From the human T2T-CHM13v2.0 reference genome, Homo sapiens, in contig CP086569.2 in the NCBI GenBank assembly GCA_009914755.4, positions 61,888,001 to 61,952,000 on the forward strand: a DNA stretch of 64,000 nt. Direction: 5' to 3'. The position numbers and the translations under genes were made by a program. The notes beneath the pieces were generated by a model that was given only the letters and a program-made list of their open reading frames with translations, made no database searches and was not told where the DNA came from. The number at the start of each line of letters is the position of its first letter. Within the stretch, counting starts at the first letter, position 1. Below, piece by piece: positions 13,401 to 42,019 of the stretch.

Positions 13401-13980
13401 CGAATGGAAATGACTCGAATAGAATGGAATTCAACAAAATAGAATCAAATGTAATGGAATGGAATGGAAAGGAATCGAAACGAAAGGAATGGAGACAGAT
13501 GGAATGGAATGGAACAGAGAGCAATGGTATAGAATGGAATGGAATCATATGGAATGGAATTGAATGGAATGGAATAATATGAAATGGAATGGAAAGGAAT
13601 GGAATGCACTTGAATTAAATGGACTGGAATGGAATGGACTCGAACGGAGTGGAATGGAAAGGATTGAAATAGAATGGAATGGACTCCTTTGGAATGGTCT
13701 AGTATGCAATGCAAACGACTGGCAGGGAATCAAAAGGAATGTAATCGAATGGATTGGACTGGAATACAATGGACTCGAATACATTGGAAACGGAATGCAA
13801 TGGAATGGAATGGAATAGTATGGAATGGAACGGAAAGGAATGAAGTAGAATGGACTAGAGTGGAATGGAATGGACTCGAAAGCAATGGACTGGAATGGAA
13901 CGATCTTGAATGGACCGGAATCAAACGGAACGGAATGCAATGCAAGGCAATCAAATGGAATGGAATAAAAGAGAATGAAA
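10486..13980 (+). repeat. HOR copy 4 (3495 bp)
   Basis: Period 3495. It carries ggaatgaaatgg (~11240) and the FHSTPFY-type variant (~11330), both shared with copies 9, 10 and 12. Confidence 0.9.
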
Positions 13981-16900: not shown

Positions 16901-17475
16901 GGAAATGACTCGAATAGAATGGAATTCAACAAAATAGAATCAAATGTAATGGAATGGAATGGAAAGGAATCGAAACGAAAGGAATGGAGACAGATGGAAT
17001 GGAATGGAACAGAGAGCAATGGTATAGAATGGAATGGAATCATATGGAATGGAATTGAATGGAATGGAATAATATGAAATGGAATGGAAAGGAATGGAAT
17101 GCACTTGAATTAAATGGACTGGAATGGAATGGACTCGAACGGAGTGGAATGGAAAGGATTGAAATAGAATGGAATGGACTCCTTTGGAATGGTCTAGTAT
17201 GCAATGCAAACGACTGGCAGGGAATCAAAAGGAATGTAATCGAATGGATTGGACTGGAATACAATGGACTCGAATACATTGGAAACGGAATGCAATGGAA
17301 TGGAATGGAATAGTATGGAATGGAACGGAAAGGAATGAAGTAGAATGGACTAGAGTGGAATGGAATGGACTCGAAAGCAATGGACTGGAATGGAACGATC
17401 TTGAATGGACCGGAATCAAACGGAACGGAATGCAATGCAAGGCAATCAAATGGAATGGAATAAAAGAGAATGAAA
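13981..17475 (+). repeat. HOR copy 5 (3495 bp)
   Basis: The ORF set is identical at a +3495 offset. Confidence 0.9.
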
Positions 17476-20400
17476 GAGAATCAAATGCAATTGAATCGAA
17501 TGGAATCGAATGGATTGGAAAGGAATAGAATGGAATGGAATGGAATTGACTCCAATGGAATGGACTAGAACGGAATGGAGTCGAATGGAAGGCAAAGGAA
17601 TGGAATCTATTGGAATGGACTGTAATGGAATGGCATGGAAGGGATTGGAATGGACTCGAATGGAAAGGACTGCAATAGAAAGGATTCTAATGGAATGAAA
17701 AAGAATTGAATGGAATAGAACAGAATGGAATCAAATCGAATGAAATGGAATGGAATAGAAAGGAATGGAATGAAATGGAATGGAAAGGATTCAAATGGAA
17801 TGCGATCAAATGGAATGCAATCGAATGGAATGGAATCGAACGGAATGGAATAAAATGGAAGGAAACTGGCAAGAAATGGAATCGAAATGAATGGAGGGTT
17901 ATGGAACGGACTCCAAAGGAATTGAATGTAATAGAATGGAGTGGAGTGGACTCGAATATAATGGACTGGAATGGAATGGAATCACATGGAATGGGAACGA
18001 ATGGAATGGAATGGAAAGGAATGGAATCGAATGGAAAGGAATCAAATGGAAGGGAATGAAATTGAATCAACAGGAATGGAAGGGAATAGAATAGACTGTA
18101 ATGGAATGGACTCGAATAGAATGGACACGAATGCTCAAATTGGATGGACTCGAATGGAATGGAAACGAAAGGAATGTCATCGAATGGAATTGAATCGATT
18201 GGAATGAAATGGCATAGAATGGAGTGGAATCAAATGGAATTGAATCGAAAGGAAAGGAAGCGAATGGACTGAAATGAAATGGAATGGAATTGAATGGAAA
18301 GTAATGCAATGGAATAGAATGGAACGAAATTTCACGGAATGGAATCAAACAGAATGGAATCAAATCAATGGAATATAATCAAATGGAATGGAATGGAATG
18401 GAAAGGAATTGAATGGAATAGATTGGATAGGAAGGGATTGGAATGCAATGGAATGGAAAGGACTCGAATTTCATGAAACGGAATGGAATGAATTGGAATG
18501 GAATGGACTCGAATGGAATGGAATGTCATGGAATGGCATCAAATGGAATGGAATCAAATGGAATGGCATCGAATGCAATGGAATGTTATGGAATGGAATG
18601 GAATGTATTGGAATGGAATGTCCTCTAATGGAATGGATTCGAGTGGAATGGAATCGAATATAATGGAGTCGAATGAAATGGAATTGAAAGGAATGGGATC
18701 GAATAGAATGGAATATACTGGAATGTAATGTAATGAAGTCGAATGTAATTGACTGGAATGGAATGTACATGAATGGAATGTAATCGAATGGAAAGTAATC
18801 CAATGAAATAGAATCTAATGCAATAAAACCGACTCAAATGGAATAGAATGTAATGGAATGGAGTGCAGTGCAATGGAATGGAATGGAATGGAATGCAATG
18901 GAGTGGAATGGAATGGAATGGGATGGAATGGTATGGAATGGATAGTAAAGGACTGGAGTGAAATGGACTGTAAAGGAATGGACTCCAATTGAAAGGGCTC
19001 GAAAGGAATGGAGTCAAATGGAATGGTCTGGAATGGAATGAACTCGAATGTAATGCAATCCAATAGAATGGAATCGAATGGAATGGAATATAAAGAAATG
19101 GAATCGACGAGAATGGAAACAGATGGAATGGAATTGAAAGGAATGGAATTGAATGGAATGGGCACGAATGGAATGAAATTGTATGGAATAGAAGAGAATA
19201 GAATGGAATGCAATGGATAAGAAAGGAATGGATTGGAATGGAAGGGAATGTAGTGTAATGGACTGGCATGGAATAAACTGGAATGCTACGGTCTCAAATG
19301 GAATAAAAATGTATGGAATGGAATGCCATGAAACGGAATCGAATGTCATAGAATGTAATGGAATGCAAAGAAATGGACTCCAAAATCATTGACTGAAAAG
19401 GCTGGGTGTCGAAAGGAATTGACTCCAATGGAATGGAATCGAATGGAATGGAAGTGAATAGAATCGAACTAAATCGAATGGAATGGAATTGATAGGAACG
19501 GAATGGAAAGGAATGGAATGATTTGGCATGGAATGGAATCGAATGGACTCGAATGGAATGGAATGGAATGCAATGGAATGGAATGTATTAGAATGTAGTG
19601 AACTTTAATGGAATGAACTCGAATGGATTCGACTGGAATGGAATGTTCTGGAAGTGAATGGACTGCAATGGAATGGATTCAAAAGGAATGGAATCGAAGG
19701 GAATGGAATCTAATGGAATGGAATTAAATGGAAAGGAATCAAATCGAATAGCAGGGAATTGAACTGAATGGAATCGAATGCAATGGAATCTAATGAAACG
19801 GAAAGGAAAGGAATGGAATGGCATGGAATGGGCTGGAATGGAATGGAATCGAAACGAATGGAATGGAATCGAACTGAAGAGACTGGAATGAAATGCACTG
19901 GCATGGAAGGGATTTTAATGGAACGTTCTTGAAAAGACTGGAATCGAATGGAATGGAATTGAATGGAACGGATATAGAGTCAAATGGAATTGAATGGAAT
20001 GGAATGGAGTAGAGTGAAATGGAATCGAGTCACTAGGAATGGACAGGAATAGAACGGTCTCGAATTGAATGGAATCGTATGGAATGGAATTCAACGGAAT
20101 GGAATGGACAGCCACGGAATGGAATGCACTCGAATGCAATGGACTCGAAACTAATGGACTGGAATCGAATGGAATGGAATCGAACGGAATGGACTCGAAG
20201 TGAAAAGAGTGCAATGGAAAGGTCTCGAATGGAATGGAAATTAATGGAATGGAATGGAATCGAATGAAATGGAGTCAAAAGGAATGGAATCGAATGGCAA
20301 GAAATCGAATGTAATGGAATCACAAGGAATGGATGTGAACGGAACGGAATGGAATGGAATCAAAAGGAATGGAATCGAATGGAATGGACTCGAATGGAAA

Positions 20401-20970
20401 TGACTCGAATAGAATGGAATTCAACAAAATAGAATCAAATGTAATGGAATGGAATGGAAAGGAATCGAAACGAAAGGAATGGAGACAGATGGAATGGAAT
20501 GGAACAGAGAGCAATGGTATAGAATGGAATGGAATCATATGGAATGGAATTGAATGGAATGGAATAATATGAAATGGAATGGAAAGGAATGGAATGCACT
20601 TGAATTAAATGGACTGGAATGGAATGGACTCGAACGGAGTGGAATGGAAAGGATTGAAATAGAATGGAATGGACTCCTTTGGAATGGTCTAGTATGCAAT
20701 GCAAACGACTGGCAGGGAATCAAAAGGAATGTAATCGAATGGATTGGACTGGAATACAATGGACTCGAATACATTGGAAACGGAATGCAATGGAATGGAA
20801 TGGAATAGTATGGAATGGAACGGAAAGGAATGAAGTAGAATGGACTAGAGTGGAATGGAATGGACTCGAAAGCAATGGACTGGAATGGAACGATCTTGAA
20901 TGGACCGGAATCAAACGGAACGGAATGCAATGCAAGGCAATCAAATGGAATGGAATAAAAGAGAATGAAA
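17476..20970 (+). repeat. HOR copy 6 (3495 bp)
   Basis: The ORF set is identical at a +3495 offset. A private SNP, gactgaaaagg, sits at ~19395. Confidence 0.9.
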
Positions 20971-23900
20971 GAGAATCAAATGCAATTGAATCGAATGGAA
21001 TCGAATGGATTGGAAAGGAATAGAATGGAATGGAATGGAATTGACTCCAATGGAATGGACTAGAACGGAATGGAGTCGAATGGAAGGCAAAGGAATGGAA
21101 TCTATTGGAATGGACTGTAATGGAATGGCATGGAAGGGATTGGAATGGACTCGAATGGAAAGGACTACAATAGAAAGGATTCTAATGGAATGAAAAAGAA
21201 TTGAATGGAATAGAACAGAATGGAATCAAATCGAATGAAATGGAATGGAATAGAAAGGAATGGAATGAAATGGAATGGAAAGGATTCAAATGGAATGCGA
21301 TCAAATGGAATGCAATCGAATGGAATGGAATCGAACGGAATGGAATAAAATGGAAGGAAACTGGCAAGAAATGGAATCGAAATGAATGGAGGGTTATGGA
21401 ACGGACTCCAAAGGAATTGAATGTAATAGAATGGAGTGGAGTGGACTCGAATATAATGGACTGGAATGGAATGGAATCACATGGAATGGGAACGAATGGA
21501 ATGGAATGGAAAGGAATGGAATCGAATGGAAAGGAATCAAATGGAAGGGAATGAAATTGAATCAACAGGAATGGAAGGGAATAGAATAGACTGTAATGGA
21601 ATGGACTCGAATAGAATGGACACGAATGCTCAAATTGGATGGACTCGAATGGAATGGAAACGAAAGGAATGTCATCGAATGGAATTGAATCGATTGGAAT
21701 GAAATGGCATAGAATGGAGTGGAATCAAATGGAATTGAATCGAAAGGAAAGGAAGCGAATGGACTGAAATGAAATGGAATGGAATTGAATGGAAAGTAAT
21801 GCAATGGAATAGAATGGAACGAAATTTCACGGAATGGAATCAAACAGAATGGAATCAAATCAATGGAATATAATCAAATGGAATGGAATGGAATGGAAAG
21901 GAATTGAATGGAATAGATTGGATAGGAAGGGATTGGAATGCAATGGAATGGAAAGGACTCGAATTTCATGAAACGGAATGGAATGAATTGGAATGGAATG
22001 GACTCGAATGGAATGGAATGTCATGGAATGGCATCAAATGGAATGGAATCAAATGGAATGGCATCGAATGCAATGGAATGTTATGGAATGGAATGGAATG
22101 TATTGGAATGGAATGTCCTCTAATGGAATGGATTCGAGTGGAATGGAATCGAATATAATGGAGTCGAATGAAATGGAATTGAAAGGAATGGGATCGAATA
22201 GAATGGAATATACTGGAATGTAATGTAATGAAGTCGAATGTAATTGACTGGAATGGAATGTACATGAATGGAATGTAATCGAATGGAAAGTAATCCAATG
22301 AAATAGAATCTAATGCAATAAAACCGACTCAAATGGAATAGAATGTAATGGAATGGAGTGCAGTGCAATGGAATGGAATGGAATGGAATGCAATGGAGTG
22401 GAATGGAATGGAATGGGATGGAATGGTATGGAATGGATAGTAAAGGACTGGAGTGAAATGGACTGTAAAGGAATGGACTCCAATTGAAAGGGCTCGAAAG
22501 GAATGGAGTCAAATGGAATGGTCTGGAATGGAATGAACTCGAATGTAATGCAATCCAATAGAATGGAATCGAATGGAATGGAATATAAAGAAATGGAATC
22601 GACGAGAATGGAAACAGATGGAATGGAATTGAAAGGAATGGAATTGAATGGAATGGGCACGAATGGAATGAAATTGTATGGAATAGAAGAGAATAGAATG
22701 GAATGCAATGGATAAGAAAGGAATGGATTGGAATGGAAGGGAATGTAGTGTAATGGACTGGCATGGAATAAACTGGAATGCTACGGTCTCAAATGGAATA
22801 AAAATGTATGGAATGGAATGCCATGAAACGGAATCGAATGTCATAGAATGTAATGGAATGCAAAGAAATGGACTCCAAAATCATTGACTGGAAAGGCTGG
22901 GTGTCGAAAGGAATTGACTCCAATGGAATGGAATCGAATGGAATGGAAGTGAATAGAATCGAACTAAATCGAATGGAATGGAATTGATAGGAACGGAATG
23001 GAAAGGAATGGAATGATTTGGCATGGAATGGAATCGAATGGACTCGAATGGAATGGAATGGAATGCAATGGAATGGAATGTATTAGAATGTAGTGAACTT
23101 TAATGGAATGAACTCGAATGGATTCGACTGGAATGGAATGTTCTGGAAGTGAATGGACTGCAATGGAATGGATTCAAAAGGAATGGAATCGAAGGGAATG
23201 GAATCTAATGGAATGGAATTAAATGGAAAGGAATCAAATCGAATAGCAGGGAATTGAACTGAATGGAATCGAATGCAATGGAATCTAATGAAACGGAAAG
23301 GAAAGGAATGGAATGGCATGGAATGGGCTGGAATGGAATGGAATCGAAACGAATGGAATGGAATCGAACTGAAGAGACTGGAATGAAATGCACTGGCATG
23401 GAAGGGATTTTAATGGAACGTTCTTGAAAAGACTGGAATCGAATGGAATGGAATTGAATGGAACGGATATAGAGTCAAATGGAATTGAATGGAATGGAAT
23501 GGAGTAGAGTGAAATGGAATCGAGTCACTAGGAATGGACAGGAATAGAACGGTCTCGAATTGAATGGAATCGTATGGAATGGAATTCAACGGAATGGAAT
23601 GGACAGCCACGGAATGGAATGCACTCGAATGCAATGGACTCGAAACTAATGGACTGGAATCGAATGGAATGGAATCGAACGGAATGGACTCGAAGTGAAA
23701 AGAGTGCAATGGAAAGGTCTCGAATGGAATGGAAATTAATGGAATGGAATGGAATCGAATGAAATGGAGTCAAAAGGAATGGAATCGAATGGCAAGAAAT
23801 CGAATGTAATGGAATCACAAGGAATGGATGTGAACGGAACGGAATGGAATGGAATCAAAAGGAATGGAATCGAATGGAATGGACTCGAATGGAAATGACT

Positions 23901-24465
23901 CGAATAGAATGGAATTCAACAAAATAGAATCAAATGTAATGGAATGGAATGGAAAGGAATCGAAACGAAAGGAATGGAGACAGATGGAATGGAATGGAAC
24001 AGAGAGCAATGGTATAGAATGGAATGGAATCATATGGAATGGAATTGAATGGAATGGAATAATATGAAATGGAATGGAAAGGAATGGAATGCACTTGAAT
24101 TAAATGGACTGGAATGGAATGGACTCGAACGGAGTGGAATGGAAAGGATTGAAATAGAATGGAATGGACTCCTTTGGAATGGTCTAGTATGCAATGCAAA
24201 CGACTGGCAGGGAATCAAAAGGAATGTAATCGAATGGATTGGACTGGAATACAATGGACTCGAATACATTGGAAACGGAATGCAATGGAATGGAATGGAA
24301 TAGTATGGAATGGAACGGAAAGGAATGAAGTAGAATGGACTAGAGTGGAATGGAATGGACTCGAAAGCAATGGACTGGAATGGAACGATCTTGAATGGAC
24401 CGGAATCAAACGGAACGGAATGCAATGCAAGGCAATCAAATGGAATGGAATAAAAGAGAATGAAA
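20971..24465 (+). repeat. HOR copy 7 (3495 bp)
   Basis: The ORF set is identical at a +3495 offset. A private SNP, ggactacaatag, sits at ~21170. Confidence 0.9.
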
Positions 24466-27090
24466 GAGAATCAAATGCAATTGAATCGAATGGAATCGAA
24501 TGGATTGGAAAGGAATAGAATGGAATGGAATGGAATTGACTCCAATGGAATGGACTAGAACGGAATGGAGTCGAATGGAAGGCAAAGGAATGGAATCTAT
24601 TGGAATGGACTGTAATGGAATGGCATGGAAGGGATTGGAATGGACTCGAATGGAAAGGACTGCAATAGAAAGGATTCTAATGGAATGAAAAAGAATTGAA
24701 TGGAATAGAACAGAATGGAATCAAATCGAATGAAATGGAATGGAATAGAAAGGAATGGAATGAAATGGAATGGAAAGGATTCAAATGGAATGCGATCAAA
24801 TGGAATGCAATCGAATGGAATGGAATCGAACGGAATGGAATAAAATGGAAGGAAACTGGCAAGAAATGGAATCGAAATGAATGGAGGGTTATGGAACGGA
24901 CTCCAAAGGAATTGAATGTAATAGAATGGAGTGGAGTGGACTCGAATATAATGGACTGGAATGGAATGGAATCACATGGAATGGGAACGAATGGAATGGA
25001 ATGGAAAGGAATGGAATCGAATGGAAAGGAATCAAATGGAAGGGAATGAAATTGAATCAACAGGAATGGAAGGGAATAGAATAGACTGTAATGGAATGGA
25101 CTCGAATAGAATGGACACGAATGCTCAAATTGGATGGACTCGAATGGAATGGAAACGAAAGGAATGTCATCGAATGGAATTGAATCGATTGGAATGAAAT
25201 GGCATAGAATGGAGTGGAATCAAATGGAATTGAATCGAAAGGAAAGGAAGCAAATGGACTGAAATGAAATGGAATGGAATTGAATGGAAAGTAATGCAAT
25301 GGAATAGAATGGAACGAAATTTCACGGAATGGAATCAAACAGAATGGAATCAAATCAATGGAATATAATCAAATGGAATGGAATGGAATGGAAAGGAATT
25401 GAATGGAATAGATTGGATAGGAAGGGATTGGAATGCAATGGAATGGAAAGGACTCGAATTTCATGAAACGGAATGGAATGAATTGGAATGGAATGGACTC
25501 GAATGGAATGGAATGTCATGGAATGGCATCAAATGGAATGGAATCAAATGGAATGGCATCGAATGCAATGGAATGTTATGGAATGGAATGGAATGTATTG
25601 GAATGGAATGTCCTCTAATGGAATGGATTCGAGTGGAATGGAATCGAATATAATGGAGTCGAATGAAATGGAATTGAAAGGAATGGGATCGAATAGAATG
25701 GAATATACTGGAATGTAATGTAATGAAGTCGAATGTAATTGACTGGAATGGAATGTACATGAATGGAATGTAATCGAATGGAAAGTAATCCAATGAAATA
25801 GAATCTAATGCAATAAAACCGACTCAAATGGAATAGAATGTAATGGAATGGAGTGCAGTGCAATGGAATGGAATGGAATGGAATGCAATGGAGTGGAATG
25901 GAATGGAATGGGATGGAATGGTATGGAATGGATAGTAAAGGACTGGAGTGAAATGGACTGTAAAGGAATGGACTCCAATTGAAAGGGCTCGAAAGGAATG
26001 GAGTCAAATGGAATGGCCTGGAATGGAATGAACTCGAATGTAAGGCAATCCAATAGAATGGAATCGAATGGAATGGAGTATAAAGAAATGGAATCGACGA
26101 GAATGGAAACAGATGGAATGGAATTGAAAGGAATGGAATTGAATGGAATGGGCACGAATGGAATGAAATTGTATGGAATAGAAGAGAATAGAATGGAATG
26201 CAATGGATAAGAAAGGAATGGATTGGAATGGAAGGGAATGTAGTGTAATGGACTGGCATGGAATAAACTGGAATGCTACGGTCTCAAATGGAATAAAAAT
26301 GTATGGAATGGAATGCCATGAAACGGAATCGAATGTCATAGAATGTAATGGAATGCAAAGAAATGGACTCCAAAATCATTGACTGGAAAGGCTGGGTGTC
26401 GAAAGGAATTGACTCCAATAGAATGGAATCGAATGGAATGGAAGTGAATAGAATCGAACTAAATCGAATGGAATGGAATTGACAGGAACGGAATGGAAAG
26501 GAATGGAATGATTTGGCATGAAATGGAATCGAATGGACTCGAATGGAATTGAATGGAATGCAATGGAATGGAATGTATTAGAATGTAGAAACTTTAATGG
26601 AATGAACTCGAATGGATTCGACTGGAATGGAATGTTCTGGAAGTGAATGGACTCCAATGGAATGGAATCAAAATGAATGGAATCGAAGGGAATGGAATCT
26701 AATGGAATGGAATTAAATGGAAAGGAATCAAATCGAATAGCACGGAATTGAACTGAATGGAATCGAATGCAATGGAATCTAATGAAACGGAAAGGAAAGG
26801 AATGGAATGGCATGGAATGGGCTGGAATGGAATGGAATCGAAACGAATGGAATGGAATCGAACTGAAGAGACTGGAATGGAATGCACTGGCATGGAAGGG
26901 ATTTTAATGGAACGTTCTGGAAAAGACTGGAATCGAATGGAATGGAATTGAATGGAACGGATATAGAGTGAAATGGAATTGAATGGAATGGAATGGAGTA
27001 GAGTGAAATGGAATCGAGTCACTAGGAATGGACAGGAATAGAACGGTCTCGAATTGAATGGAATCGTATGGAATGGAATTCAACGGAATG

Positions 27091-27130
27091 GAATGGACAG
27101 CCACGGAATGGAATGGACAGCCACGGAATG
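27091..27130 (+). repeat. 20 bp tandem duplication (gaatggacagccacggaatg x2) private to HOR copy 8
   Basis: Every other copy has a single gaatggacagccacggaatg at the homologous position (e.g. 2621-2640). Copy 8 has it at 27091-27110 and again at 27111-27130. Confidence 0.9.
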
Positions 27131-27179
27131 GAATGCACTCGAATGCAATGGACTCGAAACTAATGGACTGGAATCGAAT

Positions 27180-27219
27180 GGACTCGACTGGTATGGACTC
27201 CAATGGAATGGAATCGAAT
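27180..27219 (+). other. 40 bp segment (actcgactggtatggactccaatggaatggaatcgaatgg) that is absent from domain-1 copies and present in all domain-2 copies: a domain-diagnostic indel
   Basis: Domain 1 reads ctggaatcgaatgg|aatggaatcgaacgg (e.g. 2690-2720). Copy 8 and copies 9-19 have the extra ggactcgactggta(c/t)ggactccaatgg segment (30661, 34141, 37641, 41161 ...). Confidence 0.85.
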
Positions 27220-28019
27220 GGAATGGAATCGAACAGAATGGACTCGAAGTGAAAAGAGTGCAATGGAAAGGTCTCGAATGGAATGGAAATTAATGGAATG
27301 GAATGGAATCGAATGAAATGGAGTCAAAAGGAATGGAATCGAATGGCAAGAAATCGAATGTAATGGAATCACAAGGAATGGATGTGAACGGAACGGAATG
27401 GAATGGAATCAAAAGGAATGGAATCGAATGGAATGGACTCGAATGGAAATGACTCGAATAGAATGGAATTCAACAAAATAGAATCAAATGTAATGGAATG
27501 GAATGGAAAGGAATCGAAACGAAAGGAATGGAGACAGATGGAATGGAATGGAACAGAGAGCAATGGTACATAATGGAATGGAATCATATGGAATGGAATT
27601 GAATGGAATGGAATAATATGAAATGGAATGGAAAGGAATGGAATGCACTTGAATTAAATGGACTTGAATGGAATGGACTCGAACGGAGTGGAATGGAAAG
27701 GATTGAAATAGAATGGAATGGACTCCTTTGGAATGGTCTAGTAGGCCATGCAAACGACTGTCAGGGAATCAAAAGGAATGTAATCGAATGGATTGGACTG
27801 CAATACAATGGACTCGAATACATTGGAAACGGAATGCAATGGAATGGAATGGAATAGTATGGAATGGAACGGAAAGGAATGAAGTAGAATGGACTAGAGT
27901 GGAAAGGAATGGACTCGAAAGCAATGGACTGGAATGGAACGATCTTGAATGGACCGGAATCAAACGGAACGGAATGCAATGCAAGGCAATCAAATGGAAT
28001 GGAATAAAAGAGAATGAAA

Positions 28020-31000
28020 GAGAATCAAATGCAATTGAATCGAATGGAATCGAATGGATTGGAAAGGAATAGAATGGAATGGAATGGAATTGACTCAAAT
28101 GGAATGGACTAGAACGGAATGGAGTCGAAAGGAAGGCAAAGGAATGGAATCTATTGGAATGGACTGTAATGGAATGGCATGGAAGGGATTGGAATGGACT
28201 CGAATGGAAAGGACTGCAATAGAAAGGATTCGAATGGAATGAAAAAGAATTGAATGGAATAGAACAGAATGGAATCAAATCGAATGAAATGGAATGGAAT
28301 AGAAAGGAATGGAATGAAATGGAATGGAAAGGATTCAAATGGAATGCGATCGAATGGAATGCAATCGAATGGAATGGAATCGAACGGAATGGAATAAAAT
28401 GGAAGGAAACTGGCAAGAAATGGAATCGAAATGAATGGAGTGTTATGGAACGGACTCCAAAGCAATTGAATGTAATAGAATGGAGTGGAGTGGACTCGAA
28501 TATAATGGACTGGAATGGAATGGAATCACATGGAATGGGAACGAATGGAATGGAATGGAAAGGAATGGAATCGAATGGAAAGGAATCAAATGGAAGGGAA
28601 TGAAATTGAATCAACAGGAATGGAAGGGAATAGAATAGACTGTAATGGAATGGACTCGAATAGAATGGACACGAATGCTCAAATTGGATGGACTCGAATG
28701 GAATGGAAACGAAAGGAATGTCATCGAATGGAATTGAATCGATTGGAATGAAATGGCATAGAATGGAGTGGAATGAAATGGAATTGAATCGAAAGGAAAG
28801 GAAGCGAATGGACTGAAATGAAATGGAATGGAATTGAATGGAAAGTAATGCAATGGAATAGAATGGAACGAAATTTCACGGAATGGAATCAAACAGAATG
28901 GAATCAAATCAATGGAATATAATCAAATGGAATGGAATGGAATGGAAAGGAATTGAATGGAATAGATTGGATAGGAAGGGATTGGAATGCAATGGAATGG
29001 AAAGGACTCGAATTTCATGAAACGGAATGGAATGAATTGGAATGGAATGGACTCGAATGGAATGGAATGTCATGGAATGGCATCAAATGGAATGGAATCA
29101 AATGGAATGGCATCGAATGCAATGGAATGTTATGGAATGGAATGGAATGTATTGGAATGGAATGTCCTCTAATGGAATGGATTCGAGTGGAATGGAATCG
29201 AATATAATGGAGTCGAATGAAATGGAATTGAAAGGAATGGGATCGAATAGAATGGAATATACTGGAATGTAATGTAATGAAGTCGAATGTAATTGACTGG
29301 AATGGAATGTACATGAATGGAATGTAATCGAATGGAAAGTAATCCAATGAAATAGAATCTAATGCAATAAAACCGACTCAAATGGAATAGAATGTAATGG
29401 AATGGAGTGCAGTGCAATGGAATGGAATGGAATGGAATGCAATGGAGTGGAATGGAATGGAATGGGATGGAATGGTATGGAATGGATAGTAAAGGACTGG
29501 AGTGAAATGGACTGTAAAGGAATGGACTCCAATTGAAAGGGCTCGAAAGGAATGGAGTCAAATGGAATGGTCTGGAATGGAATGAACTCGAATGTAATGC
29601 AATCCAATAGAATGGAATCGAATGGAATGGAATATAAAGAAATGGAATCGACGAGAATGGAAACAGATGGAATGGAATTGAAAGGAATGGAATTGAATGG
29701 AATGGGCACGAATGGAATGAAATTGTATGGAATAGAAGAGAATAGAATGGAATGCAATGGATAAGAAAGGAATGGATTGGAATGGAAGGGAATGTAGTGT
29801 AATGGACTGGCATGGAATAAACTGGAATGCTACGGTCTCAAATGGAATAAAAATGTATGGAATGGAATGCCATGAAATGGAATCGAATGTCATAGAATGT
29901 AATGGAATGCAAATAAATGGACTCCAAAATCATTGACTGGAAAGGCTGGGTGTCGAAAGGAACTGACTCCAATGGAATGGAATCGAATGGAATGGAAGTG
30001 AATAGAATCGAACTAAATCGAATGGAATGGAATTGATAGGAACGGAATGGAAAGGAATGGAATGATTTGGCATGGAATGGAATCGAATGGACTCGAATGG
30101 AATGGAATGGAATGCAATGGAATGGAATGTATTAGAATGTAGTGAACTTTAATGGAATGAACTCGAATGGATTCGACTGGAATGGAATGTTCTGGAAGTG
30201 AATGGACTCCAATGGAATGGATTCAAAAGGAATGGAATCGAAGGGAATGGAATCTAATGGAATGGAATGAAATGGAAAGGAATCCAATCGAATAGCACGG
30301 AATTGAATTGAATGGAATCGAATGCAATGGAATCTAATGAAACGGAAAGGAAAGGAATGCAATGGGCTGGAATGCAATGAAATCGAACTGAAGAGACTGG
30401 AATGGAATGCACTGGCATGGAAGGGAGTTTAATGGAAGGTTCTCGAAAAGACTGGAATCGAATGGAATGGAATTGAATGGAACGGATATAGAGTCAAATG
30501 GAATTGAATGGAAAGGAAAGTAGTAGAGTGAAATGGAATCGAGTCACAAGGAATGGGCAGGAATAGAACGGTCTCGAATTGAATGGAATCGTATGGAATG
30601 GAATGGACAGCCACGGAATGGAATGCACTCGAATGCAATGGACTCGAAACTAATGGACTGGAATCGAATGGACTCGACTGGTACGGACTCCAATGGAATG
30701 GAATCGAATGGAATGGAATTGAACGGAATGGACTCGAAGTGAAAAGACTGCAATGGAAAGTCTCGAATGGAATGGAAATTAATGGAATGGAATGGAATCG
30801 AATGAAATGGAGTCAAAAGGAATGGAATCGAATGGCAAGAAATCGAATGTAATGGAATCTCAAGGAATGGATGTAAACGGAACGGAATGGAATGGAATCA
30901 AAAGGAATGGAATCGAATGGAATGGACTCGAACGGAAATGACTCGCATAGAATGGAATTTAACAAAATAGAATCAAATGTAATGGAATGGAATGGAAAGG

Positions 31001-31507
31001 AATCGAAACGAAAGGAATGGAGACAGATGGAATGGAATGGAACAGAGAGCAATGGTATAGAATGGAATGGAATCATATGGAAGGAATTGAATGGAATGGA
31101 AAAATATGAAATGGAATGGAAAGGAATGGAATGCACTTGAATTAAATGGACTGGAATGGAATGGACTCGAACGGAGTGGAATGGAAAGGATTGAAATAGA
31201 ATGGAATGGACTCCCTTGGAATGGTCTAGTATGCAATGCAAACGACTGGCAGGGAATCAAAAGGAATGTAATCGAATGGATTGGACTGGAACACAATGGA
31301 CTCAAATACATTGGAAACGGAATGCAATGGAATGGAATGGAATAGTATGGAATTGAATGGAAAGGAATGGAGTGGAATGGACTAGAGTGGAATGGAATGG
31401 ACTCGAAAGCAATGGACTGGAATGGAAGGATCTTGAATGGACCAGAATGAAACGGAAAGGAATGCAATGCAAGGCAATCAAATGGAATGGAATAAAAGAG
31501 AATGAAA
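28020..31507 (+). repeat. HOR copy 9 (3488 bp): mosaic copy. It is intermediate to ~28800, domain-1-identical from 28800 to 30200, and domain-2-like from 30200
   Basis: ORFs at 28932-29893 are identical to domain-1 ORFs. Flanking ORFs differ (28054 MELTQ...SRKEGKG; 30132 onward divergent). Confidence 0.85.
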
Positions 31508-34500
31508 GAGAATCAAATGGAATTGAATCAAATGGAATCGAATGGATTGGAAAGGAATAGAATGGAATGGAATGGAATTGACTCAAATGGAATGGACTAG
31601 AATGGAATGAAGTCGAATGGAAGGCAAAGGAATGGAATCTATTTGAATGGACTGTAATAAAATGGCATGGAAGGGATTGGAATGGACTCGAATGGAATGG
31701 ACTGCAATAGAAAGGATTCGAATGGAATGAAAAAGAATTGAATGGAATAGAACAGAATGGAATCAAATCGAATGAAATGGAATGGAATAGAAAGGAATGG
31801 AATGAAATGGAATGGAAAGGAATCGAATGGAATGCAATCGAATGGAATGGAATCGAACGGAATGGAATAAAATGGAAGGAAACTGGCAAGAAATGGAATC
31901 GAAATGAATGGAGTGTTATGGAACGGACTCAAAAGGAATTGAATGTAATAGAATGGAGTGGAGTGGACTCGAATATAATGGACTGGAATGGAATGGAATC
32001 ACATGGAATGGGAACGAATGGAATGGAATGGAAAGGAATGGAATCGAATGGAAAGGAATCGAATGGAAGGGAATGAAATTGAATCAACAGGAATGGAAGG
32101 GAATAGAATAGACGGTAATGGAATGGACTCGAATAGAATGGACACGAATGCTCAAATTGAATGGACTCGAATGGAATGGAAACGAAAGGAATGTCATCGA
32201 ATGGAATTGAATCGATTGGAATGAAATGGCATAGAATGGAGTGGAATGAAATGGAATTGAATCGAAAGGAAAGGAAGCGAATGGACTGAAATGAAATGGA
32301 ATGGAATTGAATGGAAAGTAATGCAATGGAATAGAATGGAACGAAATTTCACGGAATGGAATCAAACAGAATGGAATCAAATCAATGGAATATAATCAAA
32401 TGGAATGGAATGGAATGGAAGGGATTTGAATGGAATAGATTGGATTGGAAGGGATTGGAATGCAATGGAATGGAAAGGACTCGAATTTCATGAAACGGAA
32501 TGGAATGAATTGGAATGGGATGGACTCGAATGGAATGGAATGTCATGGAATGGCATCAAATAGAATGGAATCAAATGGAATGGAATCGAATGCAATGGAA
32601 TGTTATGGAATGGAATGTCCTCTAATGGAATGGATTCGAGTGGAATGGAATCGAATATAATGGAGTGGAATGAAATGGAATTGAAAGGAATGGGATCGAA
32701 TAGAATGGAATATACTGGAATGTAATGTAATGAAGTCGAATGTAATTGACTGGAATGGAATGTACGTGAATGGAATGTAATCGAATGGAAAGTAATCCAA
32801 TGGAATAGAATCTAATGCAATAAAATCGACTCGAATGGAATAGAATATAATGGAATGGAATGCAGTGCAATGGAACGGAATGGAATGGAATGCAATGGAG
32901 TGGAATGGAATGGATTGGAATGGAATGGGATGGAATGGTATGGAATGGATAGTAATGGACTGGAGTGAAATGGACTGGAAAGGAATGGACTCAAATTGAA
33001 AGGGCTCGAAAGGAATGGAGTCAAATGGAATGATCTGTAATGGAATGAACTCGAATGTAATGCAATCCAATAGAATGGAAACAAATGGAATGGAATTGAA
33101 TGGAATGGAATTGAATGGAATGGGAACGAATGGAGTGAAATTGTATGGAATAGAAGGGAATAGAATGGAATGCAAGGGAAAGGAAAGGAATGGATTGGAA
33201 TGGAATGGAATTCATTGGAATGGAAGGGAATGTAGTGTAATGGACAGGCCTGGAATAAACTGGAATGCTACGGTCTCGAATGGAATAAAAATGTATGGAA
33301 TTGAATGCAATGAAACGAATCGAATGTCATAGAAAGTAATGAAATGCAAAAAAAGGACTCCAAAATCATTGACTGGAAAGGCTGGGTGTCGAAAGGAATT
33401 GACTCCAATGGAATGGAATCGAATGGAATGGAAGTGAAGAGAATCGAACTAAATCGAATGGAATGGAATTGATAGGAACGGAATGGAAAGGAGTGGAATG
33501 ATTTGGCATGGAATGGAATGGAATGGCATCGAATGGAATGGAATGGAATGCAATGGAATGGAATGTATTAGAATGTAATGAACTTTAATGGGATGTACTC
33601 GAATGGATTCGACTGGAATGGAATGTTCTGGAAGTGAATGGACTCCAATGGAATGGATTCGAAAGGAATGGAATCGAACGGAATGGAATCTAATGGAATG
33701 GAACTAAATGGAAAGGAATCAAATTGAATAGCACGGAATTGAATTGAATGGAATCGAATGCAATGGAATCTAATGAAACGGAAAGGAAAGGAATGGAATG
33801 GAATGGAATGGGCTGGAATGGAATGGAATCGAAACGAATGGAATGCAATCGAACTGCAGAGACTAGAATGGAATGTACTGGAATGCAAGGGAGTGTAATG
33901 GAAGGTTCTCGAAAAAAATGGAATCGAATGGAATGGAATTGAATGGAACGGAATAGAGTCGAATGGAATTGAATGGAATGGAATGGACTAGAGTGAAATG
34001 GAATCGAGTCACAAGGAATGGACAGGAATAGAATGGCCTCGAATTGAATGGTATCGTATGGAATGGCATCAAACGGAATGGAATGGACAGCCACGGAATG
34101 GAATGCACTCGAATGCAATGGAGTCGAAACTAATGGACTGGAATAGAATGGACTCGACTGGAACGGACTCCAATGGAATGGAATCGAATGGAAGGGAATC
34201 GAACGGAATGGACTCGAAGTGAAAAGACTGCAACGGAAAGGTTTCGAATGGATTGGAAATTAATGGAATGGAATGGAATCGAATGAAATGGAGTCAAAAG
34301 GAATGGAATCGAATGGCAAGGAATCGAATGTAATGGAATCGCAAGGAATGGATGTGAACGGAACGGAATGGAATGGAATCAAAAGGAATGGAATAGAATG
34401 GAATGGAATCGAATGGAAAGGACTCGAATGGAAATCACTTGAATAGAATGAAATTTAATAAAATAGGATCAAATGTAATGGAATGGAATGGAAAGGAATC

Positions 34501-34999
34501 CAAACGAAAGGAATGGAGACAGATGGAATGGAATGGAACAGAGAGCAATGGTATAGAATGGAATGGAATCATCTGGAATGGAATTGAATGGAATGGAATA
34601 ATATGATATGGAATGGAATGGAATGGAATGCCCTTGAATTAAATGGACTGGAGTGGAATGGACTCGAACAGAGTGGAATGTAAAGTGTTGAAATAGAATG
34701 GAATGGACTCCTTTGGAATGGTCTAGTATGCAATGCAATCGACTGGCAGGGAATCAAAAGGAATGTAATCGAATGGATTGGACTGGAATGCAATGGACTC
34801 GAATAGATAGGAAACGGAATGCAAAGGAATGGAATGGAATAGTATGGAATGGAATGGAAAGGAATGGAGTGGAATAGACTAGAGTGGAATGGAATGGACT
34901 TGAAAGCAATGGACTGGAATGGAACTTTCTTGAATGGACTGGAATCAAACGGAATGGAATGCAATGCAATCAAATGGCATGGAATAAAATAGAATGAAA
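31508..34999 (+). repeat. HOR copy 10 (3492 bp), domain 2, subtype A
   Basis: Delimited by the landmark gagaatcaaatgg at 31508 and 35000. Confidence 0.85.
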
Positions 35000-37900
35000 G
35001 AGAATCAAATGGAATTGAATCGAATGGAATCGAATGGATTGGAAAGGAATAGAATGGAATGGAATGGAACTGACTCAAATGGAATGGACTAGAATGGAAT
35101 GGAGTCGAATGGAAGGCAAAGGAATAGAATCTATTGGAATGGACTGTAATGGAATGGAATGGAAGGGATTGGAATGGACTCGAATGGAATGGACTGCAAT
35201 AGAAAGGATTCGAATGGAATGAAAAAGAATTGAATGGAATAGAACAGAATGGAATCAAATCGAATGTAACGGAATGGAATTGAAAGGAATGGAATGAAAC
35301 GGAATGGAAAGGATTCGAATGGAATGCAATCAAATGGAATGGAATCGAACGGAATGGAATAAAATGGAAGAAAACTGGCAAGAAATGGAATCGAAATGAA
35401 TGGAGTGTTATGGAACGGACTCAAAGGGAATTGAATGTAATAGAATGGAGTGGAGTGGACTCGAATATAATGGACTGCAATGGAATGGAATCACATGGAA
35501 TGGGAACGAATGGAATGGAATGGAAAGGAATGGAATCGAATGGAAAGGAATCGAATGGAAGGGAATGAAATTGAATCAACAGGAATGGAAGGGAATAGAA
35601 TAGACTGTAATTGAATGGACTCGAATAGAATGGACACGAATGCTCAAATTTAATGGACTCGTATAGAATGGAAACGAAGGGAATGTCATCGAATGGAATT
35701 GAATCGATTGGAATGAAATCGCATAGAAAGAAGTGGAATCAAATGGAATTGAATCGAAAGCAAAGGAAGCAAATTGACTGAAATGAAATGGAATGGAATT
35801 GAATGGAAAGTAATGCAATGGAATAGAATGGAACGAAATTTCACGGAATGGAATCAAACAGAATGGAATCAAATCAATGGAATATAATCAAATGGAATGG
35901 ATAGGAATTGAATGGAATAGATTGGATTGGAAGGGATTGGAATGCAATGGAATGGGAAGGACTCGAATTTCATGAAACGGAATGGAATGAATTGGAATGG
36001 AATGGACTCGAATGGAATGGAATGTCATGGAATGGCATCAAATGGAATGGCATCAAATGGAATGGAATCGAATGCAATGGAATGTTATGGAATGGAATGG
36101 AATGTATTGGAATGAAATGTGCTCTAATGGAATGGATTCGAGTGGAATGGAATCGAATATAATGGAGTGGAATGAAATGGAATTGAAAGGAATGGGATCA
36201 AATAGAATGGAATATACTGGAATGTAATGTAATGAAGTCGAATGTAATTGACTGGAATGGAATGTACGTGAACGGAATGTATTCGAATGGAAAGTAATCC
36301 AATGGAATAGAATCTAATGCAATAAAATCGACTCGAATGGAATAGAATATAATGGAATGGAATGCTGTGCAATGGAACGGAATGGAATGGAATGCAATGG
36401 AGTGGAATGGAATGGATTGGAATGGAATGGGATGGAATGGTATGGAATGGATAGTAATGGACTGGAGTGAAATGGACTGGAAAGGAATGGACTCAAATTG
36501 AAAAGGCTCGAAAGGAATGGAGTCAAATGGAATGATCTGTAATGGAATGAACTCGAATGTAATGCAATCCAATAGAATGGAAACAAATGGAATGGAATTG
36601 AATGGAATGGAATTGAATGGAATGGGAACGAATGGAGTGAAATTGTATGGAATAGAAGAGAATAGAATGGAATGCAAGGGAAAGGAAAGGAATGGATTGG
36701 AATGGAATGGAATTCATTGGAATGGAAGGGAATGTAGTGTAATGGACAGGCCTGGAATAAACTGGAATGCTACGGTCTCGAATGGAATAAAAATGTATGG
36801 AATGGAATGCAATGAAACGAATCGAATGTCATAGAATGTAATGGAATGCAAAAAAATGGACTCCAAAATCATTGACTGGAAAGGCTTGGTGTCGAAAGGA
36901 ATTGACTCCAATGGAATGGAATCGAATGTAATGGAAGTGAATAGAATCGAACTAAATCGAATGGAATGGAATTGATAGGAACGGAATGGAAAGGAATGGA
37001 ATGATTTGGCATGGAATGGAATCGAATGGAATCGAATGGAATGGAATGGAATGCAATGGAATGGAATGTATTAGAATGTAATGAAATCTAATGGGATGTA
37101 CTCGAATGGATTCGACTGGAATGGAATGTTCTGGAAGTGAATGGACTCCAATGGAATGGATTCGAAAGGAATGGAATCGAACGGAATGGAATCTAATGGA
37201 ATGGAATTAAATGGAAAGGAATCAAATTGAATAGCACGGAATTGAATTGAATGGAATCGAATGCAATGGAATCTAATGAAACGGAAAGGAAAGGAATGGA
37301 ATGGAATGGAATGGGCTGGAATGGAATGGAATCGAAACGAATGGAATGGAATCGAACTGCAGAGACTGGAATGGAATGTACTGGAATGCAAGGGAGTGTA
37401 ATGGAAGGTTCTCGAAAAGAATGGAATCGAATGGAATGGAATTGAATGGAACGGAATAGAGTCGAATGGAATTGAATGGAATGGAATTGACTAGAGTGAA
37501 ATGGAATCGAGTCACAAGGAATGGACAGGAATAGAATGGTCTCGAATTGAATGGAATCGTATGGAATGGCATCAAACGGAATGGAATGGACAGCCACGTA
37601 ATGGAAAGCACTCGAATGCAATGGAGTCGAAACTAATGGACTGGAATAGAATGGACTCGACTGGTACGGACTCCAATGGAATGGAATGGAATGGAAGGGA
37701 ATCGAACGGAATGGACTCGAAGTGAAAAGATTGCAACGGAAAGGTTTCGAATGGAATGGAAATTAATGGAATGGAATGGAATCGAATGAAATGGAGTCAA
37801 AAGGAATGGAATCGAATGGCAAGGAATCGAATGTAATGGAATCGCAAGGAATGGATGTGAACGGAACGGAATGGAATGGAATCAAAAGGAATGGAATAGA

Positions 37901-38507
37901 ATGGAATGGAATCGAATGGAAAGGACTCGAATGGAAATCACTTGAATAGAATGCAATTTAATAAAATAGGATCAAATGTAATGGAATGGAATGGAAAGGA
38001 ATCGAAACGAAAGGAAAGGAGACAGATGGAATGGAATGGAACAGAGAGCAATGGTATAGAATGGAATGGAATCATCTGGAATGGAATTGAATGGAATGGA
38101 ATAATATGATATGGAATGGAATGGAACGGAATGCCCTTGAATTAAATGGACTGGAATGGAATGGACTCGAACAGAGTGGAATGGAAAGTGTTGAAATAGA
38201 ATGGAATGGACTCCTTTGGAATGGTCTAGTATGCAATGCAATCGACTGGCAGGGAATCAAAAGGAATGTAATCGAATGGATTGGACTGGAATGCAATGGA
38301 CTCGAATAGATAGGAAACGGAATGCAAAGGAATGGAATGGAATAGTATGGAATGGAATGGAATGGAAAGGAATGGAGTGAAATAGACTAGAGTGGAATGG
38401 AATGGACTCGAAAGCAATGGACTGGAATGGAACTTTCTTGAATGGACTGGAATCAAACGGAATGGAATGCAATGCAATCAAATGGCATGGAATAAAATAG
38501 AATGAAA
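35000..38507 (+). repeat. HOR copy 11 (3508 bp), domain 2, subtype A
   Basis: Delimited by the landmark at 35000 and 38508. Confidence 0.85.
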
Positions 38508-41500: not shown

Positions 41501-42019
41501 GAAAGGAATCGAAACGAAAGGAATGGAGACAGATGGAATGGAATGGAACAGAGAGCAATGGTATAGAATGGAATGGAATCATCTGGAATGGAATTGAATG
41601 GAATGGAATAATATGATATGGAATGGAATGGAACGGAATGCCCTTGAATTAAATGGACTGGAATGGAATGGACTCGAACACAGTGGAATGGAAAGTGTTG
41701 AAATAGAATGGAATGGACTCCTTTGGAATGGTCTAGTATGCAAGGCAATCGACTGGCAGGGAATCAAAAGGAATGTAATCGAATGGATTGGACTGGAATG
41801 CAATGGACTCGAATAGATAGGAAACGGAATGCAAAGGAATGGAATGGAATAGTATGGAATGGAATGGAATGGAATGGAAAGGAATGGAGTGAAATAGACT
41901 AGAGTGGAATGGAATGGACTCGAAAGCAATGGACTGGAATGGAACTTTCTTGAATGGACTGGAATCAAACGGAATGGAATGCAATGCAATCAAATGGCAT
42001 GGAATAAAATAGAATGAAA
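38508..42019 (+). repeat. HOR copy 12 (3512 bp), domain 2, subtype A
   Basis: Delimited by the landmark at 38508 and 42020. A 15 bp pentamer-multiple deletion near 42310 is compensated by extra ggaat pentamers near 41860. Confidence 0.85.

What the first reader, a model, noticed from the sequence alone, without database searches (positions are those of the whole stretch)
25991..30200. Sharp homogeneity cliff: a young, near-identical HOR block abuts an older, divergent layer of the same HOR
Copies 1-7 plus the first 1.5 kb of copy 8 are essentially identical. I find only about 10-15 SNPs across 26 kb, so identity is above 99.8% by eye. From ~25990 onward the copies differ from the domain-1 consensus by several percent. 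They also differ from each other by a few percent, and they carry many pentamer-multiple indels. The pattern is that of a recently amplified or homogenised sub-array inserted in, or bordering, an older array of the same family. The switch occurs inside HOR copy 8 rather than at an HOR boundary, which implies an exchange breakpoint within the unit.
Basis: seen in the sequence. Interest (0 to 1): 0.6.

Follow-up and report, generated by a model that had tools for sequence, protein, structure and literature searches.

The report
Young amplified block in DYZ1 satellite
This is Y-chromosome-type satellite DNA (DYZ1/HSat3A6) in which one 3.5-kb repeat unit was recently copied at least seven times beside older, more mutated copies, an ordinary and already described way for satellite arrays to evolve.

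Summary
The cliff is real. Bases 1-26,016 are 7.44 copies of a 3,495-bp unit, with 8 variable columns and 11 variant cells (>=99.8% identity). The first block-breaking difference is at 26,017. After that every unit carries 18-42 private substitutions and pentamer-multiple indels.

The far side is not one older layer; there are two steps.
- Step 1 (26,017): the tail of unit 8 and unit 9 belong to the same subfamily ("A") as the block. They differ from it by 1.1-1.4% in substitutions, are its closest relatives, and are un-homogenised.
- Step 2 (31,499-31,519, outside the finding): an abrupt switch to a different subfamily ("B", units 10-18). B is about 5% (about 9% with gaps) from A and closer to canonical DYZ1.

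The whole window is HSat3A6/DYZ1-type. Evidence: the family-specific 24-mer, the classical 154-bp primer amplicon in B units, 38-39% GC, and 1 CpG per 35 bp. Both subfamilies are nonetheless 3-4.4% from the canonical 3,569-bp unit recovered from human-contaminated bacterial contigs.

Best explanation: recent in-place tandem multiplication of one 3,495-bp segment by unequal sister-chromatid exchange, with occasional short conversion patches.

Homogenised cores flanked by diverged units are published for Yq12 and for centromeres. This is a clean textbook instance of low novelty.

The parts
1..26016 (+). Young homogeneous block: seven complete 3,495-bp units (1-24,465) plus the first 1,551 bp of unit 8. 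The left edge lies outside the window.
   Evidence: Lag-3,495 mismatches. BLAST unit table. Identity matrices. Only 8 variable columns.
25253..26017 (.). Interval holding the right-hand breakpoint of the block. The first block-breaking base is 26,017 (T>C), which also creates the first HaeIII site of the window at 26,015. Under the flanking difference density, the 95% interval is about 25,777-26,016.
   Evidence: Base 25,252 carries a state that is polymorphic within the block (units 2, 3, 5).
26017..28019 (+). Tail of unit 8: an old, un-homogenised A-type layer. It has 21 private substitutions and a private 20-bp tandem duplication (27,083-27,102). It keeps 40 bp (27,169-27,208) that all block units have lost.
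   Evidence: In the tail-partition tree it is sister to the block with a long branch.
2684..2685 (+). Site of the block-specific 40-bp deletion. It recurs after 2,684, 6,179, 9,674, 13,169, 16,664, 20,159 and 23,654, and is flanked by the 14-bp direct repeat TGGAATCGAATGGA. It is a derived marker of the amplified master unit.
   Evidence: The 40 bp are present in units 8-18 and in canonical DYZ1.
28020..31507 (+). Unit 9: an old A-type unit. It has 24 private substitutions and about 87 gap columns relative to the block. It retains ancestral (B/canonical) states at several sites.
8746..8934 (+). Conversion-like patch inside block unit 3: four clustered variants. Three are shared with unit 9 and one with B/canonical.
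31499..31519 (.). Abrupt junction between subfamily A (units 1-9) and non-A units. A-derived states run through 31,498, and non-A states begin at 31,520.
   Evidence: There is a step in the adjacent-unit difference table and in the matrices.
31508..38507 (+). Units 10-11: transitional units of the B side. Their heads carry canonical-like states and few B-derived ones.
38508..64000 (+). Units 12-18 plus partial unit 19: core of subfamily B. Units are 3,479-3,669 bp long and 1.3-2.2% apart in substitutions. Each full unit has one EcoRI, HaeIII, PstI and StuI site, except that unit 12 lacks the EcoRI site.

Best explanation
The window is a DYZ1/HSat3A6-type pentameric satellite array. In it, one 3,495-bp segment of a diverged subfamily ('A') was recently multiplied in place into at least 7.4 tandem copies. 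The segment runs from HOR phase 1,552 through phase 1,551 of the next unit.

The most likely mechanism is repeated unequal, out-of-register but homologous, sister-chromatid exchange or an equivalent replication-based tandem duplication. The right end of the amplified segment is at about 26,016. Beyond it the original downstream sequence continues: the unit-8 tail, then unit 9. These are older and each is individually mutated.

Rare short gene-conversion tracts then introduced a few neighbour-like states into the block. About 5.5 kb further on (31,499-31,519), subfamily A abuts a second subfamily, B.

Shown: the block, its edge, the relationships among units, and family membership. Inferred: the exchange mechanism, the ages, and the chromosomal location.
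For: **The block comes from a single master unit.**
- Seven units have identical length and share a derived 40-bp deletion absent from units 8-18 and from canonical DYZ1.
- There are 0-1 private substitutions per block unit against 18-42 in every other unit.

**The amplification was in place.**
- In the head partition, unit 8 nests inside the block (u1-u8 clade 93%).
- In the tail partition, unit 8 is sister to the block with a long private branch.
- Unit 9 is sister to both (100%).

**The edge is sharp.** There are zero differences over 1,551 bp, then 5 in the next 467 bp. P is about 4e-9 under the flank density.

**The block shows almost no patchwork.** Only the unit-3 patch at 8,746-8,934 and the unit-4 site at 11,241 carry neighbour-like states. 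This is what copying whole units predicts, not short-tract conversion of pre-existing diverged units of different lengths (3,479-3,669 bp).

**Family membership.**
- The HSat3A6 24-mer of Altemose 2014 matches exactly 15 times. None of the 13 other subfamily 24-mers match.
- GC is 38-39% and there is 1 CpG per 35 bp. These equal the DYZ1 values in Hallast 2023.
- The recalled DYZ1 primers define a 154-bp amplicon once per B unit. They match human-contaminant contigs perfectly.
- One of those contigs circularises at 3,569 bp, the commonest DYZ1 fragment length.

**Published context.**
- Units in the middle of DYZ1 arrays are more alike than units at the edges.
- Yq12 evolves by unequal exchange, with sister-chromatid exchanges seen in about 15% of Strand-seq libraries.
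- Yq12 shows de novo structural variants of whole repeat units and gene-conversion-like de novo mutations.

**Rough dating (inference).**
- There are 2-6 new mutations in 26 kb. At 3.86e-7 per bp per generation this gives about 200-600 generations for the block.
- The private load of the old units gives about 13,000-31,000 generations.
Against: - The left edge of the block is not in the window. 'Tandem multiplication of one segment' is therefore not verified at both ends.
- Unequal exchange and long-tract conversion or break-induced replication leave the same end product. No mechanism-specific scar is expected or seen.
- The interleaved G/A pattern at phase 787 (units 1-8 read G A A G A G G A) does not fit a simple one-step history. 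It needs either recurrent CpG mutation or multi-step exchange.
- Copy number inside a 26-kb near-identical stretch depends on assembly quality, which cannot be checked here.
- The origin is unproven. Both subfamilies are 3-4.4% from canonical DYZ1, whereas most Yq12 units are >98% identical. The Yq12 mutation rate used for dating may therefore not apply.
Confidence: 0.75

Rival explanations
1. Homogenisation without amplification. Long-tract gene conversion or break-induced replication overwrote seven or more pre-existing diverged units with one template. Copy number stayed the same.
For: Gene-conversion-like events are documented in Yq12: 17-29% of de novo SNVs have donor matches elsewhere. 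A conversion-like patch exists in unit 3. The final sequence would look the same.
Against: Conversion would have to be continuous over more than 26 kb. It would also have to reset all unit lengths to exactly 3,495 bp, although neighbouring old units range from 3,479 to 3,669 bp. No residual mosaic remains apart from one 189-bp patch and one single site. De novo changes of whole repeat units are observed directly in pedigrees.
Confidence: 0.12
2. Assembly or polishing artefact. The near-identity or the copy number of the block was produced by consensus polishing with mis-mapped reads, or by mis-resolution of a repeat graph.
For: A 26-kb stretch with only 11 distinguishing bases is near the resolving limit of 15-20-kb accurate reads. 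This is general knowledge, not tested here.
Against: Individual units keep their own markers: unit 3 patch, unit 4 at 11,241, unit 6 at 19,396, unit 7 at 21,167. The block carries a coherent derived 40-bp deletion with a slippage signature. The edge joins seamlessly and in register to sister sequence. Such blocks are a reported, validated feature of Yq12 and centromeres.
Confidence: 0.06
3. The block is a segment of a homogeneous array from elsewhere that was inserted or juxtaposed next to an unrelated older array by a larger rearrangement.
For: Large iterative duplications spanning whole DYZ1/DYZ2 blocks occur in Yq12. A truly abrupt subfamily junction exists nearby at 31,499-31,519.
Against: At the 26,017 edge the flanking units are the block's closest relatives and share nearly all A-derived states. 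Juxtaposition could explain the 31.5-kb junction but not the cliff in question.
Confidence: 0.05

Closest known systems
DYZ1 (HSat3A6) arrays of human Yq12, as described in the T2T-Y and 43-Y-assembly papers (bioRxiv 10.1101/2022.12.01.518724; 10.1101/2022.12.01.518658)
   Same: - Pentamer-derived HOR of about 3.5 kb.
- GC of 38% and 1 CpG per 35 bp.
- The HSat3A6-specific 24-mer.
- Units in one part of an array nearly identical while nearby units are diverged.
- Evolution attributed to unequal exchange.
   Different: - Units here are 3,495-3,512 bp, not 3,569 bp. Both subfamilies lack 45+15+5 bp present in canonical units.
- They are 3-4.4% (substitutions) from canonical, against more than 98% identity for most Yq12 units.
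- Subfamily A has no HaeIII site and two EcoRI sites at other phases.
- No DYZ2 is in the window, so the alternating-block context is unseen.
Layered organisation of centromeric alpha-satellite HOR arrays: a near-identical core with increasingly divergent periphery
   Same: A young, near-identical core of HOR copies is flanked by older copies of related HORs, with sharp identity steps on heat maps. Hallast 2023 explicitly likens Yq12 arrays to this pattern.
   Different: It is a different satellite family (171-bp monomers rather than pentamers). It has a kinetochore association with no counterpart here. The scale is usually hundreds of kb to Mb, not 26 kb.
DYZ19 array: successive rounds of mutation and expansion giving homogenised sub-blocks
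   Same: Discrete, recently expanded and highly similar sub-blocks sit inside an older array of the same repeat. These are datable by shared variants.
   Different: It has a 125-bp unit derived from an LTR. The expansions described are tens of kb to about 80 kb and are shared by haplogroups. No population data are available for the present block.

Membership tests
HSat3A6 / DYZ1 | Built from diverged GGAAT/CATTC pentamers | tested here: met
   TRF finds one array over 9-64,000 with consensus AATGG x3. Strong G>C and A>T skew holds throughout.
HSat3A6 / DYZ1 | Higher-order repeat of about 3.5-3.6 kb. The commonest unit is 3,569 bp. | tested here: inconclusive
   An HOR is present, but at 3,495 bp (A) and 3,479-3,512 bp (B, plus one 3,669-bp unit). 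Canonical contaminant contigs have periods of 3,569 and 3,574 bp. The literature value is 3,569 bp. The family period is right, but this is not the canonical length.
HSat3A6 / DYZ1 | Carries the subfamily-specific 24-mer TCGTTTCGATTCCTTTCCATTCCA (Altemose 2014, Table 1) and not those of other HSat2/3 subfamilies | tested here: met
   There are 15 exact matches, once in each of units 1-9 and in six B units. At <=1 mismatch there are 34. There are no exact matches to the other 13 subfamily 24-mers.
HSat3A6 / DYZ1 | Full-length similarity to canonical human DYZ1 units | tested here: met
   Alignment covers the whole unit. Substitution identity to L005/L001 is 95.6% (A) and about 97% (B). BLAST identity with gaps is 93% and 95-95.6%. 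This is lower than the >98% typical of Yq12.
HSat3A6 / DYZ1 | One HaeIII and one EcoRI site per unit (the classical restriction definition) | tested here: inconclusive
   Met in B units: one HaeIII site and, except unit 12, one EcoRI site, at constant phase. Not met in A units: no HaeIII site in 1-26,014 and two EcoRI sites 330 bp apart at another phase. The classical definition is from my own knowledge. HaeIII use is confirmed.
HSat3A6 / DYZ1 | Classical DYZ1 sexing primers give a 154-bp product | tested here: inconclusive
   The primers are recalled from memory and were not found in the paper library. They were validated by perfect matches 154 bp apart in five human-contaminant contigs. B units have one exact site and one 1-mismatch site giving a 154-bp amplicon. 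A units have no match to the first primer within 2 mismatches.
HSat3A6 / DYZ1 | Base composition of about 38% GC and about 1 CpG per 35 bp | tested here: met
   GC is 0.38-0.40. There are 96-104 CpG per 3,495 bp.
HSat3A6 / DYZ1 | Location on Yq12, in blocks alternating with DYZ2 (HSat1B) | not testable with these tools
   No non-pentameric sequence is in the window, and no human or ape genome is searchable here. Altemose 2014 lists HSat3A6 as 'Y, 7', so an autosomal copy cannot be excluded.
Homogenised core / diverged flank architecture of satellite arrays | A block of near-identical units, a step in identity, and flanking units that are its nearest but older relatives | tested here: met
   Matrices, adjacent-unit table, partitioned trees and private-substitution counts.

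The most novel reading that the evidence does not exclude
Subfamily A may be a so-far undescribed lineage of DYZ1. It lacks the HaeIII site, has a 3,495-bp unit, and is 4.4% from canonical. It is still actively expanding, and it sits at a razor-sharp junction with a second non-canonical subfamily.

Because it has no HaeIII site, it would escape the virtual-HaeIII-digest unit calling used for Yq12. It could mark a peripheral Yq12 block, the minor autosomal (chr7) HSat3A6 locus, or a lineage-specific array. If so, it would be a datable marker of very recent satellite turnover.
Probability: 0.25. Interest if true: 0.3.

Novelty: already known. Interest (0 to 1): 0.2.

Why it matters
The finding is a clean, base-resolution example of how satellite arrays renew themselves. 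It shows one master unit with a diagnostic 40-bp slippage deletion, an exact right-hand edge, the un-homogenised sister units preserved next to it, and one conversion patch.

Such cases can calibrate rates of unequal exchange against conversion once population assemblies are compared. They also flag stretches where assembly copy number needs long-read validation.

It does not reveal a new kind of element or mechanism.

Tried and rejected
1. **Unit 10 as an A/B recombinant mosaic**. Rejected after adding canonical DYZ1 as a third reference. In its first ~1.1 kb unit 10 mostly carries the canonical state where A and B differ. It is a less-derived unit, not a recombinant.
2. **Searching for A-type units elsewhere.**
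   - A scan of genome contigs with a primer pattern allowing both variants gave five contigs, all canonical-type.
   - A scan of metagenome contigs with the A-type variant of the 23-mer gave two contigs, also canonical-type (98-99.7% to canonical).
   - No second copy of subfamily A or B was found.
3. **Literature search for the primer sequences.** There were no hits. The primers were validated against the contaminant contigs instead.
4. **Suspicion that the sequence might be simulated.**
   - The trigger was that private substitutions have a transition/transversion ratio of about 0.8.
   - Against this, the ratio is above the random 0.5 and CpG sites are 2.1-fold enriched. Indels have slippage signatures, and family markers match independent human sequences.
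   - A reduced transition/transversion ratio in duplicated sequence is also reported.
   - The suspicion was not pursued further.
5. **Rfam scan of the window.** Nothing was found. Genes and ORFs were not examined, because the whole window is pentameric satellite.
6. **Looking for described DYZ1 subfamilies, a chr7 HSat3A6 array, or ape DYZ1 in the paper library**. Nothing specific enough to place the window was found.


Full report
**What the window is.**
- Tandem Repeats Finder reports one array covering 9-64,000, built on AATGG. GC is 38-40%, with strong strand asymmetry throughout.
- Offsets between successive copies of the same 24-mer peak at 3,495 bp. Minor peaks lie at 3,479-3,669 bp.
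- BLAST of the first 3,495 bases against the window cuts it into 18 full units plus a partial one.
- The HSat3A6-specific 24-mer of Altemose et al. 2014 (PMC4022460) matches exactly 15 times. None of the 13 other HSat2/3 subfamily 24-mers matches.
- CpG density is 96-104 per unit, or 1 per 35 bp. This and the GC content equal the values given for DYZ1 in Hallast et al..
- Two 23-mers that I recalled as the classical DYZ1 sexing primers hit once per unit in units 10-18, 154 bp apart. The paper library did not contain them.

**An external reference for canonical DYZ1.**
- A scan of bacterial genome contigs with one primer pattern returned five contigs. A metagenome scan returned two more.
- The five bacterial contigs carry both recalled primers with no mismatch, exactly 154 bp apart. 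They are 96.5-99.9% identical to each other.
- One circularises at 3,569 bp and another at 3,574 bp. 3,569 bp is the most abundant DYZ1 HaeIII fragment in Hallast et al..
- The T2T-Y paper documents that bacterial assemblies are contaminated with human Y HSat3.
- I therefore treat these contigs as canonical human DYZ1.

| Comparison with canonical | Subfamily A (units 1-9) | Subfamily B (units 10-18) |
|---|---|---|
| Substitution difference | 4.4-5.0% | 2.8-3.2% |
| Difference from the other subfamily | 5.0-6.1% | 5.0-6.1% |

- Both subfamilies lack 45+15+5 bp that canonical units have.
- The window is therefore a diverged DYZ1-type array, not the bulk Yq12 sequence, in which most units are more than 98% identical.
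- Its location cannot be determined with these tools. It could be a peripheral Yq12 block, the minor 'chr7' HSat3A6 locus listed, or a non-human ape Y.

**Checking the observation.**
- At a lag of 3,495 bp only 19 positions mismatch up to window position 21,757. The next mismatches pair with 26,017, 26,044, 26,078, 26,420 and 26,483, after which register is lost.
- Units 1-7 are all exactly 3,495 bp and differ pairwise by 0-6 bases. Variation is confined to 8 alignment columns.
- The head of unit 8 (24,466-26,016) contains only states found in the block. Its tail carries 21 substitutions found in no other unit, a 1-bp deletion and a 20-bp insertion.
- A unit-by-unit identity matrix and an alignment-free k-mer heat map both show block structure.
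- Given the difference density in the unit-8 tail, a clean 1,551-bp head has probability about 4e-9.
- Indel lengths are overwhelmingly multiples of five.

**The far side has two steps, not one.**
- Units 8 (tail) and 9 differ from the block consensus by 1.1-1.4% in substitutions plus 61-87 gap columns. They share nearly all states that distinguish units 1-7 from units 10-18.
- In neighbour-joining trees built separately for the parts of the unit before and after the breakpoint:
  - unit 8 nests in the block for the head (93% bootstrap);
  - unit 8 is sister to the block with a long private branch for the tail;
  - unit 9 is sister to both (100%).
- The real subfamily change comes later. A-derived states continue through 31,498 and non-A states start at 31,520. 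From there, substitution distance to the block is about 5% (about 9% with gaps).
- Polarising with canonical DYZ1, 112 of the 152 A/B substitution differences are derived in A, 36 are derived in B, and 4 match neither. B is not simply the aged parent of A.
- Units 10 and 11 are less B-derived than units 12-18. My first reading of unit 10 as an A/B mosaic was wrong.

**Anatomy of the young block.**
- All seven units lack 40 bp that every other unit and canonical DYZ1 retain. The deletion is flanked by the 14-bp direct repeat TGGAATCGAATGGA, a slippage signature. This marks descent from one master unit.
- Of the eight variable columns:
  - Four form a 189-bp cluster in unit 3 (8,746-8,934). Three of these states are shared with unit 9 and one with B/canonical. 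This is a conversion-like patch.
  - One, in unit 4 (11,241), is also neighbour-like.
  - One is a CpG site with interleaved states (G A A G A G G A across units 1-8).
  - Two are singletons (19,396 and 21,167).
- The block has no HaeIII site at all. The first site in the window (26,015) is created by the first block-breaking SNP.

**Mechanism.**
- The simplest history is tandem multiplication of one 3,495-bp segment that ends at phase 1,551. The original downstream sequence (unit-8 tail, then unit 9) follows the last copy.
- This explains three things:
  - the non-integer 7.44 copies seen from the window start;
  - the identical unit lengths, in contrast to 3,479-3,669 bp elsewhere;
  - the near absence of mosaicism.
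- Unequal sister-chromatid exchange is the accepted driver in Yq12. Iterative duplications and sister-chromatid exchanges are observed there, and whole-unit de novo structural variants are seen in pedigrees.
- Interlocus gene conversion also occurs in Yq12. It accounts for the unit-3 patch.
- The choice of mechanism is inference. The product alone cannot separate unequal exchange from long-tract conversion or break-induced replication.
- The breakpoint being 'inside copy 8' has no significance, since the unit phase was set by the first base of the window.

**Ages (inference, assuming a Yq12-like rate and a star-like history).**
- With 2-6 new mutations in 26,016 bp and 3.86e-7 per bp per generation (PMC12240836), the block is about 200-600 generations old. 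At the autosomal rate of 1.17e-8 (same paper) it would be about 6,600-20,000 generations.
- The 0.5-1.2% private load of the old units corresponds to about 13,000-31,000 generations at the Yq12 rate. That is roughly 50-100 times older.

**Comparison with what is known.**
[quoted passage not shown] They interpret this as expansion and contraction homogenising the centre, and liken it to centromeres.
- Rhie et al. attribute the Yq12 structure to unequal exchange.
- The finding is therefore an instance of a described pattern. It is unusual only in that both subfamilies are non-canonical and that subfamily A has lost the restriction site by which DYZ1 units are classically, and computationally, delimited.

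**Verdict.**

| Item | Verdict |
|---|---|
| Observation | Confirmed |
| Novelty | Already known |
| Interest | 0.2 |

Noticed in passing
window 31,499-31,519: There is a second and larger discontinuity outside the finding's coordinates: an abrupt switch from subfamily A to non-A units. It falls at the same HOR phase as window base 1 (31,507 = 7 x 3,495 + 3,554 + 3,488). The chance of this coincidence is about 0.6-1.3%, and I cannot explain it.
   Followed up: partly
window 8,746-8,934 (unit 3); also 11,241 (unit 4): Four clustered variants sit inside the otherwise identical block. Three are shared with unit 9 and one with B/canonical DYZ1. This looks like a short gene-conversion tract from a neighbouring old unit.
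   Followed up: partly
window 27,083-27,102 and after 2,684 (+n x 3,495): Unit 8 carries a perfect 20-bp tandem duplication (ACGGAATGGAATGGACAGCC). The block units carry a 40-bp deletion between 14-bp direct repeats. Both are classic slippage products.
   Followed up: yes
window 47,828-47,987 (unit 14): A 160-bp insertion makes this unit 3,669 bp. It is 96.5% identical to the sequence immediately upstream, so it is an internal tandem duplication.
   Followed up: yes
window 1-26,014 versus 31,508-64,000: The restriction maps of the two subfamilies differ. A units have no HaeIII, PstI or StuI site and two EcoRI sites 330 bp apart. B units have one each of HaeIII, PstI and StuI, and one EcoRI site except in unit 12. 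A HaeIII-based unit caller would see subfamily A as one fragment of more than 26 kb.
   Followed up: yes
L001-L005 (BMRF01000076.1, CALPCJ010000043.1, NZ_JBFAJD010000109.1, BNBB01000077.1, CAYVXY010000078.1); L006-L007 (OAUT01000082.1, OAWE01001279.1): Contigs filed under Actinomadura, Senimuribacter, Streptomyces, Streptosporangium and a Polyangiaceae MAG, plus two metagenome contigs, are human DYZ1 satellite. Two of them circularise at 3,569 and 3,574 bp. They are contamination in public assemblies.
   Followed up: partly
units 8-18 (window 26,017-63,152): Private substitutions have a low transition/transversion ratio (121:146). CpG sites are enriched only 2.1-fold, which is weaker than expected for heavily methylated DNA.
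   Followed up: partly
window 30,466-30,539 and 32,128-32,173: TRF reports two small local tandem repeats, with periods of 31 and 23 bp, inside units 9 and 10. I did not examine them.
   Followed up: no
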